Positions 38,239 through 40,668 of a DNA stretch of 43,619 nt are shown piece after piece (within the stretch, counting starts at the first letter, position 1; each line of letters opens with the position of its first letter). A model generated the notes under the pieces. That model was not told the origin of the DNA. It saw only the letters and a program-made list of their open reading frames with translations, and ran no database searches. The DNA lies in assembly GCA_022842865.1 (NCBI GenBank), contig JALHOV010000001.1:1-43619 (forward strand), written 5' to 3'. The DNA comes from Vulcanimicrobiota bacterium (GTDB lineage Bacteria > Vulcanimicrobiota > Xenobia > Xenobiales > JADMJV01). A program made the position numbers and the translations under genes.

Positions 38239-38865
38239 GTGGATATGAGTTATCGCAAAGCCGCTCAGTGGATCGATGAGCAATTTCAGTTAGACGATCC
38301 CCAGCAAGCCCTACACAACGCGCTCGGGGAGCTGGAACTGGTGCCTCCGCGCAAGCGGGACGCAGACTGGCACTACCTGCGCGGCTTCTGCTGCTACGAC
38401 CTGGGACAGGCCGAGGAGGCCGAGCGCGAATTTCGCACCTCTCTGCTACTCCAGCCGGAACAACGCTGGGCTGTTCTTTACCTGGGTCAAACGCTCTTCG
38501 ACCGGGGAGAGTATGCCGAAGCCCTCCCCTACTTCCAGCGAGCCCGCCTCGAGCAACCCTGGCGCGTTCTGAAGAATCAGGAAATGATGCTGTGCTGTCG
38601 CCTCTACACCCAGAGCCGACTGCCGAATATCCAGTTGCTTCGCGACCTGGTCGAGCTTTTCGAAAAGCATCCGAAGGATGCCCCGGAACCGACCGATATG
38701 GTGCTCTGCCTCGACCGCCTGCAGGAGCGCATCCCGGTCAAGCGCCGGGCCGAGTGGTGGGAATGCCTGCAGCGACTGGTTAAGGTCGGCGGCGGCTCAG
38801 GCCTGCAGCCCGTCATGGACCGTCTCGAAGCCAGCCTCGCGCCAACCGTCCAGGCCTCCAAGTAA
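38239..38865 (+). CDS. TPR-like hypothetical protein
   Basis: TPR-like helical pairs: GQAEEAEREFRTSLLLQPEQRWAVLYLGQTLFDRGEYAEALPYFQRA. Confidence 0.55.
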   Translation: MDMSYRKAAQWIDEQFQLDDPQQALHNALGELELVPPRKRDADWHYLRGFCCYDLGQAEEAEREFRTSLLLQPEQRWAVLYLGQTLFDRGEYAEALPYFQRARLEQPWRVLKNQEMMLCCRLYTQSRLPNIQLLRDLVELFEKHPKDAPEPTDMVLCLDRLQERIPVKRRAEWWECLQRLVKVGGGSGLQPVMDRLEASLAPTVQASK

Positions 38866-39729
38866 AGGCTGTACCTTCTCGAGGCCTTTCTTTTGTAAGA
38901 GCAGCGCCACACGGGCGCTGGTTGCTTCACTGGGTCAACTACAATAGACCACGATGGGAAGGTTGCGCGGGAGGCGTTCCAGGGAGTCGAGTGACACCAC
39001 GTGAGCCCCTGGAATGATGTAGGGGTCCGCTTGGCGCTGCAGCTCCTGGCGCAGGTCCACGATGTAGGGATCCTGCCCACCATCGATCATCTCTTTGAGC
39101 TGCTGGGGTGTGAGGCGGGCCGCCCGCCAGCGGCGCAAAAAGAACCATCGGCGAGCGAAACGGTAGCCCAGGTGAATTCCGATGACCACCACGCCAATCT
39201 GCACCAAAGTGGCGCCGGCGCCTTCCACCCATGCGATCAGCTCTTCTAACTGCTCGCGCAGCAGCCAGCCCAGGCCACCATAGACCGCCACCCAAAGACT
39301 GCTTCCAACGGTGTCCAGGGCGATAAATCGGTAGACGGGCACCCCGGTCAGGCCAGCCATCGGCGGCGCCAGCGTGGAAAGGCCGGGCAGGAATTTGGCC
39401 ACGACCAGCACCTTTTCGCCCCAGCGTTGGAACGTGCCGGCGGTGCTGTTCACGCAATGATCGGGTTCGATAGCCAGGCGGCAGAGAGTTCTCAGAACAC
39501 TTATACCGCGCGACCGGCCCAGGCCGTACCAGGCGAGGTCGCCGAGCACGGCGGCGCAGACAGTGATGAGCAAGGCCGGTACCAGGTCCAGGTAGCCCAG
39601 GCCCACCAGCGCTCCGGCCGCCATCAGCACGGGGGCCGCCGGGAAGGGCAGTCCCAGTTGCTCCAGCAGGACGGTAGCGAAAAGCAAAGGATAACCGTGG
39701 GTTTTAAGACTTTCGAGAGTGGCGCTCAC
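38797..39729 (-). CDS. DedA (VTT) membrane domain fused to rhodanese, with an in-frame TGA in the rhodanese active-site loop (candidate selenoprotein); ends at 38935 without read-through
   Basis: The GTG start at 39729 overlaps the FMN reductase TGA (GTGA). DedA motifs: LLEQLGLPFPAAP and AKFLPGLSTLAPPMAG. The rhodanese stops at IVVYCS-TGA (38937..38935). The same frame then continues as PSEATSARVALLLQKKGLEKVQPLLGGLDGWREAGFETV..., ending at TGA 38799..38797 and completing the domain. Confidence 0.6.
38902..38920 (-). promoter_or_regulatory. SECIS-like hairpin downstream of the in-frame UGA
   Basis: Minus-strand CAGCGCC-CGUGU-GGCGCUG (7-bp stem, 5-nt loop containing GU). It starts 14 nt after UGA 38937..38935, so the loop begins 21 nt after the UGA. 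Confidence 0.5.
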
Positions 39730-40238
39730 TGCAGAGTCTTGATCAGTCCTTCGGCGAGCTCCAGGCTCTTGGCGTCGGTCAGGCGCCCGTTCTCCACCTT
39801 GGTGTGAACGGTCGGGATGGCCACTTCTGGATAGGGGACGACCTCGGCCAGACAGGCGTAGAAGCACTCGCGGATGGAGGCCTGGGCGCGAGCCCCGCCG
39901 GTGGTGGCCATAGAGCAGGTGATAATGGCGACTTTTTTGCCTTTGAGGACGGATTGGTAGCCGGGTCGGGAAGCCCAATCCAGCGCGTTCTTCAAGACGC
40001 CCGGAATGCCATAGTTGTATTCCGGTGATACCACCAGAAGGCCCGCGCTGGCCGCGATGGCGTCCTTGAACTTACGCACCGGATCGGGAGGATGCTCGCC
40101 GTCCTGGTCCGCGTTATAAAGCGGGATGGAGGAAATGTCAAAGATCTCGATCTCCCGGCCCTCGGCCAGAGTGTTGAGAACGGCCCGATTGAAGGATTCG
40201 CGCCGCAGGCTGCCGGCAATGCCCAAGATTTTGTTCAT
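39726..40238 (-). CDS. NAD(P)H-dependent FMN reductase family oxidoreductase
   Basis: Start chosen at MNKILGIAGSLRRESFN. LLVVSPEYNYGIPGVLKNALDWASRP is the family signature (PF03358-like). Confidence 0.85.
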   Translation of the reverse strand: MNKILGIAGSLRRESFNRAVLNTLAEGREIEIFDISSIPLYNADQDGEHPPDPVRKFKDAIAASAGLLVVSPEYNYGIPGVLKNALDWASRPGYQSVLKGKKVAIITCSMATTGGARAQASIRECFYACLAEVVPYPEVAIPTVHTKVENGRLTDAKSLELAEGLIKTLQ

Positions 40239-40314
40239 AAGGTCCCGCTTCGTTTGCACAACTCGCTTTGCCTGCAGCGAGAGGGGGCGGGCTTTCCTTA
40301 CAGAAAGCCCGCCC

Positions 40315-40668
40315 ATGATTACTGCCAATCCGGTCCTTTTGAAATTCCTGTGCAGCCTGGCCTCGTGCGATGGCAAGCTGGTCGATCAAGAAGAGTCGTT
40401 CCTACGCAACATCTTCCATCAACTGCATTTGGACGTGGATGAACAAGAGTCCCTGCTGGCTTTTCAAGGGCCGCTGCCAAAGGAGCAGGAATTGCTGGTA
40501 GCCTGTCCAGACCCGGGCACGCGGCGCGAGTTTCTGAGGCTGGCCGTGGACCTGGCCTGGAGCGACGGTGAACTGTCCGATCCCGAGTGGGACTTGATCA
40601 AGGGCTTTTGCAGCACATTTACGATGCGTATCCGCACCTGGCAGGAACTCAACAACTGGCTGAGCTAG
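40315..40668 (+). CDS. TerB-like (tellurite-resistance TerB fold) small protein
   Basis: Start chosen at MITANPVLLKF. There are two copies of the TerB-type motif, CDGKLVDQEESFL and SDGELSDPEWDLI. Confidence 0.55.
   Translation: MITANPVLLKFLCSLASCDGKLVDQEESFLRNIFHQLHLDVDEQESLLAFQGPLPKEQELLVACPDPGTRREFLRLAVDLAWSDGELSDPEWDLIKGFCSTFTMRIRTWQELNNWLS

What the first reader, a model, noticed from the sequence alone, without database searches (positions are those of the whole stretch)
38797..39729. DedA-rhodanese fusion interrupted by TGA inside the rhodanese active-site loop: second candidate selenoprotein
The annotated ORF ends ...NLPIVVYCS-TGA (38937..38935), in the middle of a rhodanese domain.

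- Reading through in the same frame gives PSEATSARVALLLQKKGLEKVQPLLGGLDGWREAGFETVHDGLQA, then TGA (38799..38797).
- That stretch is exactly the missing C-terminal half of a rhodanese: the active-site loop, then a helix, then GG..W...G.
- From memory, Cys versions of this DedA-rhodanese architecture read YC[ST]CPNEA[TS]SA at this spot. The TGA therefore replaces a loop cysteine. C/U-P-x-E-A-T-S fits the C-x5-[ST] rhodanese loop.
- 14 nt after the TGA lies the hairpin CAGCGCC-CGUGU-GGCGCUG.
- Rhodanese-related sulfurtransferases are a selenoprotein family already described in prokaryotic selenoproteome surveys. A Sec-rhodanese fused to a DedA membrane domain is, to my knowledge, not characterised.

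The read-through tail overlaps the convergent 38239..38865 gene by 69 nt.
Basis: partly seen in the sequence, partly recalled or inferred. Interest (0 to 1): 0.8.

Follow-up and report, generated by a model that had tools for sequence, protein, structure and literature searches.

The report
Selenocysteine-containing DedA–rhodanese membrane protein gene
The "premature" TGA in this membrane-protein gene very probably encodes selenocysteine at the catalytic site of its rhodanese domain, and the same recoded gene, routinely mis-annotated as truncated, is widespread in soil bacteria.

Summary

- **The gene.** It lies on the minus strand at 39729..38797 and has an in-frame TGA at 38937..38935. Reading through adds 45 codons and completes a rhodanese domain (Pfam 39.3 bits against 17.9 when truncated).
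- **The TGA position.** The TGA sits on the catalytic Cys of the rhodanese loop. Full-length relatives read YC[ST]CPNEA there.
- **The hairpin.** The hairpin at 38920..38902 meets all four published bacterial SECIS constraints. It shows compensatory covariation across 120 sequences and is absent from Cys-type relatives that encode the same peptide.
- **Family size.** Eighty of the 120 hits are DedA fusions. About a quarter of the nearest protein clusters stop exactly at this codon.
- **Closest curated family.** NF041203 is a stand-alone CxU rhodanese selenoprotein. The window's protein scores 56.7 bits against a cutoff of 115, so it is a related but distinct, undescribed architecture.

Sec machinery could not be checked in the source genome, and the biochemical function remains inferred.

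The parts
38797..39729 (-). Full coding sequence of the DedA-rhodanese selenoprotein: 310 residues, GTG start, in-frame Sec-TGA at codon 265, true terminator TGA at 38799..38797
   Evidence: N-terminus identical to orthologs P0002-P0005.
39265..39645 (-). DedA/VTT membrane domain (residues 29-155)
   Evidence: PF09335, 52.8 bits against cutoff 33.9. Weak similarity to DedA/UptA NCBIfam models, all below their cutoffs.
39454..39483 (-). C83-x8-C92 motif (LCRLAIEPDHC) in a positively charged loop of the DedA half
   Evidence: Both Cys invariant in 111 full-length relatives. A strict regex finds the motif in 67 of 77 Sec-type DedA fusions.
38836..39111 (-). Rhodanese domain (residues 207-298), spanning the TGA
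   Evidence: PF00581, 39.3 bits over profile positions 1-101 of 102 with read-through; 17.9 bits over positions 1-69 without. Foldseek matches of the ortholog model are to rhodanese domains only.
38941..38943 (-). Codon for Cys263, the first residue of the C-x-U dyad
   Evidence: Invariant in 111 Cys-type relatives. In the metagenome set this Cys was fixed by the search pattern.
38935..38937 (-). In-frame TGA, read as selenocysteine 265 at the catalytic position of the rhodanese loop U-P-S-E-A-T-S
   Evidence: Aligns with the catalytic Cys of 6mxv, 3foj and 3iwh and with invariant C265 of Cys-type relatives. TGA at the same codon in 6 distinct orthologs and 120 metagenome loci.
38902..38920 (-). 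SECIS-like hairpin: 7-bp stem CAGCGCC/GGCGCUG with 5-nt loop CGUGU, beginning 14 nt after the TGA (21 nt from the TGA to the loop)
   Evidence: -11.8 kcal/mol. Covariation in 120 sequences. Loop G invariant and the next base only U or G. Meets the four bSECIS constraints quoted in PMC13188914. Not kept in Cys-type genes.
38800..38934 (-). Post-TGA tail of 45 codons: rest of the active-site loop, a helix, and the GGLDGW motif
   Evidence: Conserved in frame in all orthologs. pN/pS 0.10-0.42.
39726..40241 (-). Upstream NADPH-dependent FMN reductase gene whose TGA stop overlaps the GTG start (operon-like). Possible redox partner.
   Evidence: PF03358, 122 bits. Same arrangement in L002. An unrelated flavoenzyme (nitroreductase) occupies the same position in another lineage.

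Best explanation
This is a genuine bacterial selenoprotein gene.

**Recoding.** During translation, the UGA at codon 265 is decoded as selenocysteine by SelB carrying Sec-tRNA(Sec). SelB is recruited by the mRNA hairpin that begins 14 nt downstream. The product is a 310-residue inner-membrane protein with an N-terminal DedA/VTT membrane domain and a C-terminal rhodanese domain that is probably cytoplasmic.

**Active site.** Sec occupies the catalytic position of the rhodanese active-site loop (U-P-S-E-A-T-S). It lies two residues after an invariant Cys, forming a C-x-U dyad. The dyad most likely cycles through a selenenylsulfide or carries a sulfane/selenium adduct.

**What is shown and what is inferred.**
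- Shown: the Cys/Sec alignment, the conserved TGA, coding selection on the tail, and the covarying SECIS-type hairpin.
- Inferred: the actual insertion of Sec, the cytoplasmic location, and the chemistry. The chemistry could be sulfur or selenium transfer, or thiol-selenol redox. It may be coupled to the second invariant Cys pair (C83-x8-C92) and to an upstream flavin reductase.
For: - **Domain completion.** Read-through restores a full rhodanese domain.
- **Catalytic position.** The TGA aligns with the catalytic Cys of solved rhodaneses and with invariant C265 in 111 Cys-type relatives.
- **Conserved TGA.** TGA is at the same codon in 6 distinct orthologs at 56-87% identity.
- **Coding selection.** Tail pN/pS is 0.10-0.42.
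- **Hairpin pairing.** 92.3% of cells pair, against 83.9% in shuffles (0 of 500 reach it). Covariation is 0.219 against 0.083, and slid registers give 23-55%.
- **Compensatory changes.** Pair 27-39 reads CG 100, UA 16, GC 2. Pair 26-40 reads GC 108, CG 8.
- **Loop.** The loop G is invariant while the encoded residue varies among R, G, S and W. The next base is only U or G in 120 of 120 sequences.
- **bSECIS model.** All four published constraints are met.
- **Cys-type control.** Four Cys-type genes encoding the same or a similar peptide use other codons. They break the closing pair and have C or A at the U/G-only loop position.
- **TGA is still a stop.** TGA is the real terminator of this gene, of its upstream neighbour, and of 70 of 115 family genes, so it is not reassigned.
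- **Known relative.** The nearest curated family, NF041203, is itself a recognised CxU rhodanese selenoprotein.
Against: - No selA, selB, selD or tRNA-Sec was found in the window or in about 756 kb of related loci. These are short contigs, so the absence is uninformative, but the machinery remains unverified for this genome.
- No Rfam family matches the hairpin.
- Part of the C·G to U·A covariation could reflect lineage GC content. However, U27 pairs with A39 in 16 of 17 cases and never with U or C. The UCC...GGA and GCU...AGC variants are multi-pair swaps that GC bias does not explain.
- Most of the stem is also constrained by the conserved peptide S-A-R-V-A-L.
Confidence: 0.9

Rival explanations
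1. The TGA is a true stop. The functional product is the 264-residue DedA protein with a dead partial rhodanese, or the gene is a pseudogene or carries a sequencing error.
For: All public gene calls stop at the TGA (P0001 and P0003-P0010). A truncated product would in any case be made when Sec insertion fails.
Against: The same TGA appears in more than 120 independent assemblies. The tail stays in frame without stops for 35-70 codons, is conserved at the protein level, and has pN/pS 0.10-0.42. The truncated protein falls below the rhodanese threshold. A conserved, covarying hairpin sits at the SECIS position.
Confidence: 0.03
2. The UGA is read through, but by something other than Sec. Candidates are near-cognate Trp or Cys at a leaky UGA-C context, or a SelB-dependent Cys-inserting tRNA. 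The hairpin would act only as a read-through stimulator.
For: The UGA is always followed by C (this was forced by the Pro codon in my search pattern). Sec machinery is unverified for this genome.
Against: The position is the catalytic Cys, where Trp would inactivate the enzyme. The loop keeps the SelB-type N-G-[G|U] signature at the canonical distance. The sister family NF041203 is curated as a selenoprotein. A clade that needed only Cys could simply use TGC, as L001 does.
Confidence: 0.05
3. The conserved hairpin is only a by-product of the conserved peptide S-A-R-V-A-L. AGCGC and GCGCU are self-complementary by amino-acid necessity, so the hairpin is not a functional RNA element.
For: Cys-type genes encoding SARVAL still form 4-6 of the 7 register pairs. 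Arg at the loop codon is at least 90% conserved in Cys-type proteins too.
Against: In TGA genes the free third-codon positions are fixed or covary: pair 30-36 is C·G in 119 of 120, and pair 27-39 reads CG 100, UA 16. The loop third position is U or G in 120 of 120. The four Cys-type genes show T, G, C or A at these sites and C or A in the loop. When the peptide changes (SAGQAE, AAGQAA), the stem changes in a compensatory way. The nearest Cys ortholog has lost both the peptide and the hairpin.
Confidence: 0.02

Closest known systems
[quoted passage not shown]
   Same: Rhodanese domain with Sec at the catalytic position and a Cys two residues before it (CxU). Same loop, U-P-x-E-A-T-S. Same type and position of SECIS hairpin: the stand-alone forms appeared in the same DNA scan and fit the same covarying stem. 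It is the best NCBIfam hit for the window's protein.
   Different: The window's protein scores 56.7 bits against a cutoff of 115, while a stand-alone form scores 188.3. NF041203 proteins are about 130-residue single-domain proteins with signal-peptide-like N-termini. This one is a C-terminal domain on a DedA membrane protein, probably on the cytoplasmic side.
Cys-type DedA(COG0586)-rhodanese fusions (PF09335+PF00581), noted by Todor, Herrera & Gross 2023 (bioRxiv 10.1101/2023.01.04.522824)
   Same: Identical architecture, 40-87% identity, and the same four invariant Cys positions and active-site loop. The nearest one (P0002/L001, Vulcanimicrobiota MAG) shares neighbouring genes with the window.
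   Different: They have TGC/TGT instead of TGA and lack the constrained hairpin. That paper states only that the link between the rhodanese and UndP flipping is 'unclear', and does not mention Sec forms.
E. coli YgaP, a membrane-anchored single-domain rhodanese
   Same: A cytoplasmic rhodanese domain tethered to the inner membrane. It is a structural neighbour of the model's rhodanese domain (5hbo, 2moi).
   Different: YgaP has the rhodanese at the N-terminus with two C-terminal helices and no DedA domain. It has a single catalytic Cys, no CxC/CxU dyad and no Sec.
E. coli fdhF/fdnG SECIS and the bSECISearch consensus model (as summarised in PMC13188914)
   Same: A stem-loop immediately downstream of the UGA, inside the coding region. 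Small apical loop with G followed by U or G in the first positions. Spacing within 16-37 nt. MFE below -7.5 kcal/mol.
   Different: The sequence is unrelated and the core stem has no bulged U. From memory, the loop G sits about 3 nt further from the UGA than G23 of fdhF. SelB binding was not tested.

Membership tests
Bacterial selenoprotein gene (Sec-UGA recoding) | In-frame UGA aligned with Cys in homologs (Cys/Sec pair) | tested here: met
   Aligned with invariant C265 of 111 relatives and with the catalytic Cys of solved rhodaneses.
Bacterial selenoprotein gene (Sec-UGA recoding) | Conserved coding sequence downstream of the UGA, and TGA-containing orthologs in other organisms | tested here: met
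   pN/pS 0.10-0.42.
Bacterial selenoprotein gene (Sec-UGA recoding) | bSECIS element: 3-9 nt loop, 4-16 bp stem, G in the first two loop positions (N-G-[G|U]), 16-37 nt from the UGA, MFE <= -7.5 kcal/mol | tested here: met
   5-nt loop CGUGU, 7-bp stem, 21 nt spacing, -11.8 kcal/mol. 103 of 120 family members meet all four with the minimal hairpin alone. Covariation.
Bacterial selenoprotein gene (Sec-UGA recoding) | selA, selB, selC and selD present in the same genome | not testable with these tools
   None in the 43.6-kb window or in about 756 kb of related loci.
Bacterial selenoprotein gene (Sec-UGA recoding) | Selenium actually incorporated (75Se labelling or mass spectrometry) | not testable with these tools
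   Requires experiment.
NF041203 rhodanese_LYCAU (seleno)protein | Score at or above the curated cutoff of 115 bits | tested here: not met
   The window's protein scores 56.7 bits and another DedA-Sec form 80.7. A stand-alone form, L037, scores 188.3.
NF041203 rhodanese_LYCAU (seleno)protein | C-x-U motif at the rhodanese active site | tested here: met
   C263-S264-U265.
NF041203 rhodanese_LYCAU (seleno)protein | Single-domain protein of about 126 residues | tested here: not met
   310-residue two-domain membrane protein.
Rhodanese domain PF00581 | Pfam gathering score of 22.2 bits, with a Cys-type catalytic residue at the start of the active-site loop | tested here: met
   39.3 bits over profile positions 1-101 of 102. 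Alignments. Fold matches.
DedA/VTT family PF09335 | Pfam gathering score of 33.9 bits | tested here: met
   52.8 bits, residues 29-155.
Undecaprenyl-phosphate transporter UptA (NF052604/NF052605) | Score at or above the equivalog cutoff (250 or 300 bits) | tested here: not met
   43.1 and 31.2 bits. This is DedA-like, but cannot be called a UptA ortholog.

The most novel reading that the evidence does not exclude
The DedA-rhodanese proteins, in Sec or Cys form, would be a membrane redox or chalcogen-handling module. Electrons would flow from NAD(P)H through the adjacent flavin reductase (FMN_red in this clade, nitroreductase in another) to the C-x-U/C dyad and the C-x8-C loop. That chemistry would act on a substrate moved by the DedA domain, for example selenite, tellurite or another sulfur or selenium species, or a lipid-linked carrier. 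This would give DedA proteins a catalytic partner and would make this the first selenoenzyme of the DedA superfamily.
Probability: 0.15. Interest if true: 0.75.

Novelty: new variant of a known kind. Interest (0 to 1): 0.55.

Why it matters
- **Annotation.** A common soil-bacterial gene family is systematically annotated as a truncated "DedA" protein. All nine closest database clusters stop at the TGA, and so do 33 of the 150 nearest 50%-identity clusters. Recognising it as a selenoprotein corrects those annotations.
- **Selenoproteome.** The architecture is absent from the 2026 selenoproteome catalogue and from NCBIfam, so it adds a new entry.
- **Selenium use.** It extends known selenium use to the poorly studied phylum Vulcanimicrobiota (Eremiobacterota).
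- **DedA biology.** Selection for Sec, together with four invariant redox-type residues, is the first concrete hint that the unexplained DedA-rhodanese fusions perform thiol/selenol chemistry at the membrane.
- **SECIS evolution.** The Sec and Cys forms inside one clade (87% identical) form a natural experiment on how a SECIS is gained and lost.

Tried and rejected
- **Rfam.** Searches at gathering threshold (whole window) and at E<=10 (38780..39000) found nothing relevant.
- **tRNA-Sec.** ARAGORN found none in the window or in 129 loci.
- **Sec machinery.** tblastn with E. coli SelA, SelB and SelD against the window plus all loci (about 756 kb) gave no hits. This is uninformative because the contigs are short.
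- **The other selenoprotein.** I looked for the 'first' candidate implied by the title, using in-frame TGA scans with GC3 and redox-motif filters and Pfam on about 40 window ORFs. Nothing convincing emerged.
- **Neighbours.** FMN_red and TerB are conserved only in the closest relatives, so I rejected them as family-wide context. Unsupervised neighbour clustering then found the nitroreductase association in another lineage.
- **Short upstream ORFs.** Some DedA-type loci (L025, L048, L070, L107) have short upstream ORFs. These look like frameshifts, not a second Sec codon.
- **Literature.** Searches for DedA+rhodanese+selenocysteine and for Eremiobacterota+selenocysteine returned nothing.
- **Genetic-code reassignment.** Rejected, because TGA terminates this gene, its upstream neighbour and 70 of 115 family genes.
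Full report
**1. The observation.**
The minus-strand ORF starts at GTG 39729..39727. This start overlaps the TGA stop of an upstream FMN-reductase gene. The ORF runs to ...NLPIVVYCS followed by TGA at 38937..38935. The same frame then continues for 45 codons (PSEATSARVALLLQKKGLEKVQPLLGGLDGWREAGFETVHDGLQA) to TGA 38799..38797.

Fourteen nucleotides after the internal TGA lies the hairpin CAGCGCC-CGUGU-GGCGCUG (38920..38902). The tail overlaps the convergent TPR gene 38239..38865 by 69 nt. All coordinates and sequences in the finding are correct.

**2. Read-through completes a rhodanese domain, and the TGA is at the catalytic Cys.**
With the TGA read as a residue, Pfam finds VTT/DedA (residues 29-155, 52.8 bits). 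It also finds Rhodanese (residues 207-298, 39.3 bits, profile positions 1-101 of 102). The truncated protein scores only 17.9 bits for rhodanese, below the 22.2-bit threshold, and covers profile positions 1-69 only.

Pairwise alignments to solved rhodaneses (6mxv, 3foj, 3iwh) put the TGA position on the catalytic Cys at the head of the C-X5 loop. The Cys two residues earlier falls in the preceding strand.

In 111 full-length Cys-type relatives, Y262, C263, C265, P266 and E268 are invariant. So are two further cysteines in the DedA half, C83 and C92 (LCRxSxEPDxC).

**3. The TGA is conserved.**
The protein search returned the window's own call (P0001, 264 aa) and eight further clusters at 56-87% identity. 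All eight end at ...YC[ST] and carry only the DedA domain. Full-length relatives read YC[ST]CPNEA.

DNA was recovered for six of these clusters (8 loci). All have TGA at that codon, a conserved in-frame tail, and a real stop (TGA, TAA or TAG) 43-52 codons later. Tail pN/pS against the window is 0.10-0.42.

I then scanned metagenomes with a pattern that fixes only the peptide motif (L/I/V)(L/I/V)-Y-C-x-TGA-P-x-E-A-T-x-A and leaves the hairpin bases free. Every one shows the conserved rhodanese tail in frame.

- 80 of the 120 are DedA fusions.
- 16 are cut by contig ends.
- About 24 are other architectures, mostly stand-alone, signal-peptide-bearing 'LYCAU' rhodaneses.

In an exhaustive search of 1.84 billion cluster representatives, I classified the 150 best hits:

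- 94 are full-length C-x-C forms.
- 33 stop exactly at ...C-x, which makes them Sec-type candidates.
- 13 are fragments that do not cover the site.
- 10 have another residue at the site or lack the C-x-C motif.

TGA is also the genuine terminator of 70 of 115 of these genes, of this gene, and of its upstream neighbour. TGA is therefore not reassigned.

**4. The hairpin behaves as a SECIS element.**
I aligned 120 distinct sequences without gaps, from 6 nt before the TGA to 54 nt after its first base. On this alignment the stem pairs columns 24-30 with columns 36-42.

| Measure | Observed | Control |
|---|---|---|
| Cells forming a standard pair | 92.3% | 83.9% in shuffles (0 of 500 reach the observed value) |
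| Covariation score | 0.219 | 0.083 in shuffles (0 of 500) |
| Pairing with the 3' partner slid by 1-3 columns | n/a | 23-55% |

Individual pairs:

- Pair 27-39: CG 100, UA 16, GC 2, UG 1, unpaired 1. Both columns are third-codon positions.
- Pair 26-40: GC 108, CG 8.
- Pair 25-41: AU 88, UA 5, GC 2.
- Pair 30-36: C·G in 119 of 120.

Variant stems such as UCCGCC...GGCGGA and GCUGCC...GGCAGC change two or three pairs at once.

The second loop base is G in 120 of 120 sequences, although the codon encodes R, G, S or W. The next base, a four-fold-degenerate site in most of these sequences, is only U (66) or G (54).

The published bSECIS model has four constraints: a 3-9 nt loop on a 4-16 bp stem; G in the first two loop positions (N-G-[G|U]); 16-37 nt between the UGA and the loop; and MFE <= -7.5 kcal/mol (PMC13188914). 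The window's element meets all four, with a 5-nt loop, a 7-bp stem, the loop CGUGU, 21 nt spacing and -11.8 kcal/mol. The minimal hairpin alone meets all four in 103 of 120 family members.

One caveat applies. The C·G to U·A change could partly follow genomic GC content. However, U27 is partnered by A39 in 16 of 17 cases and never by U or C, and column 30 stays C even in AT-rich members.

**5. Cys-type genes lack the constraint.**
Four Cys-type genes were examined.

- L130, L131 and L132 encode S-A-R-V-A-L but use GCT/GCG/GCC, CGC/CGA, GTA/GTT and GCC/GCG/GCT. Two of the three break the closing pair (L130 has U·A there), and all three put C or A at the U/G-only loop position.
- The nearest Cys ortholog (P0002/L001, a Vulcanimicrobiota MAG) is 87% identical to the Sec form P0005. 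That is closer than P0005 is to any other Sec form. It has TGC, and its hairpin peptide has changed to A-A-N-V-A-M, which forms no hairpin.

This is a recent Sec/Cys switch within the clade. It shows that the hairpin and the TGA are gained or lost together.

The peptide S-A...A-L is intrinsically self-complementary at the RNA level (AGCGC/GCGCU). That probably made it easy for a SECIS to evolve here. This last point is my inference.

**6. Relation to what is known.**
The best NCBIfam hit is NF041203, 'rhodanese_LYCAU, rhodanese-related (seleno)protein'. Selenoproteome reviews list this family as rhodanese form 3 / COG0607 form 2 with motif CxU.

| Protein | Score against NF041203 (cutoff 115 bits) |
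|---|---|
| Window's protein | 56.7 |
| Another DedA-Sec form | 80.7 |
| Stand-alone form from the scan (L037) | 188.3 |

So the fusion is a relative of NF041203, not a member. No other NCBIfam model covers it. Its DedA half resembles DedA and UptA models only weakly, at 43-45 bits against cutoffs of 236-300.

The 2026 review does not contain the word DedA. No paper in the searched library combines DedA, rhodanese and selenocysteine. Todor et al. 2023 note that COG0586 DedA-rhodanese fusions exist and that their role is unclear.

**7. How the protein may work (inferred).**
An AlphaFold model of the Cys ortholog is confident (mean pLDDT 85.2, pTM 0.67). It shows a helical DedA bundle followed by a canonical rhodanese. 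Foldseek finds only rhodanese domains in the PDB, including Alr3790, YgaP and a persulfide dioxygenase-rhodanese fusion. Nothing solved matches the DedA half.

The segment after the last membrane helix (RFARRWFFLRRWRAAR) and the C-x8-C loop are rich in Arg and Lys. The SCAM topology study of YqjA places its N-terminus and residue G217 in the cytoplasm. Both points argue that the rhodanese domain and the C-x8-C loop are cytoplasmic.

Selection for Sec at the catalytic site points to thiol/selenol redox or sulfur/selenium transfer at the membrane. So do the invariant Cys two residues before it, the second invariant Cys pair, and the invariant Glu in the loop, which is unusual for an anion-binding rhodanese loop.

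A flavin-dependent reductase sits immediately upstream on the same strand in two non-homologous forms.

- In the window and L002 it is FMN_red, with its stop overlapping the DedA start.
- In 21 Sec-type loci of another sub-lineage, and in the Cys-type L130, it is a nitroreductase about 20 nt upstream.

This suggests, but does not prove, an NAD(P)H-driven partner. A divergent TerB-like gene is shared only with the closest relatives. Published hints that a DedA protein affects selenite uptake make a chalcogen-related role attractive, but that role is unsupported here.

**8. What could not be done.**
Sec machinery could not be sought in the source genome. None was found in the window or in about 756 kb of related contigs. 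I found no second selenoprotein in the window.

**9. Verdict.**
It is best described as a new architectural variant of a known kind: the CxU rhodanese selenoproteins. The variant is a membrane DedA fusion with cytoplasmic Sec. It is widespread and mis-annotated at scale. My confidence that this is a genuine Sec-encoding gene is about 0.9. My confidence in any specific biochemical function is low.

Noticed in passing
window 39726..40241 (-) and loci L013, L032, L043, L045, L047, L049, L056, L058, L060, L063, L082, L084, L085, L088, L100, L104, L106, L116, L121, L122, L129, L130: Two unrelated flavin reductases occupy the slot immediately upstream of DedA-rhodanese genes on the same strand. In the window's clade it is FMN_red (PF03358), with its stop overlapping the DedA start. 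In another sub-lineage (Sec and Cys forms) it is a nitroreductase (PF00881) about 20 nt upstream. This may be a redox partner.
   Followed up: partly
window 39454..39483 (-), residues C83-x8-C92: A second pair of cysteines (LCRxSxEPDxC) in a basic loop of the DedA half is invariant in 111 full-length relatives and present in most Sec forms. Whether generic DedA proteins lack it was not checked.
   Followed up: partly
window 40315..40668 (+): A TerB-like (tellurite-resistance domain) gene is transcribed divergently from the FMN_red/DedA-rhodanese pair. It is conserved next to the gene in L001, L002 and L003 only.
   Followed up: partly
L012, L023, L035, L037, L040, L059, L086, L097, L108, L118, L119: Stand-alone rhodaneses of about 135 residues with signal-peptide-like N-termini and the motif LYCA-TGA-P-x-EATSA. 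L037 is a full member of NF041203 (188 bits). They share the same hairpin register as the DedA fusions, with AGU...GCA in place of AGC...GCG.
   Followed up: partly
L001 10001..10924 compared with P0005: The Cys-type ortholog in a Vulcanimicrobiota MAG is 87% identical to a Sec-type ortholog, closer than Sec forms are to each other. This is a recent Sec/Cys switch, accompanied by loss of the hairpin and of the SARVAL peptide (now AANVAM).
   Followed up: yes
window 38797..38865: The selenoprotein tail and the C-terminus of a convergent TPR gene (38239..38865, +) overlap by 69 nt. The same overlap seems to be present in L002. The rhodanese frame is the one conserved across the family.
   Followed up: partly
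L025, L048, L070, L107: DedA-type Sec loci whose DedA half is interrupted. Homology continues in another frame or is lost, which looks like frameshifts or assembly errors and not a second Sec codon.
   Followed up: partly
window, whole: The finding's title calls this the 'second' candidate selenoprotein. My scans for in-frame TGA with coding potential or redox motifs, and Pfam on about 40 ORFs, did not reveal another convincing candidate. They also found no sel genes. Gene content (T2SS/T4P ATPase, caspase-like peptidase, Ser/Thr kinase, hybrid histidine kinase, beta-lactamase-fold proteins) and synteny with L001 suggest a Vulcanimicrobiota/Eremiobacterota relative.
   Followed up: partly
L024 10186..10261, L034 2803..2878, L076 4104..4179, L126 2105..2180: In one sub-lineage (motif FYCT-U-PGEATSA) a tRNA-Asn(GTT) gene lies about 200 nt downstream of the Sec-rhodanese gene. 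This is probably lineage synteny.
   Followed up: no
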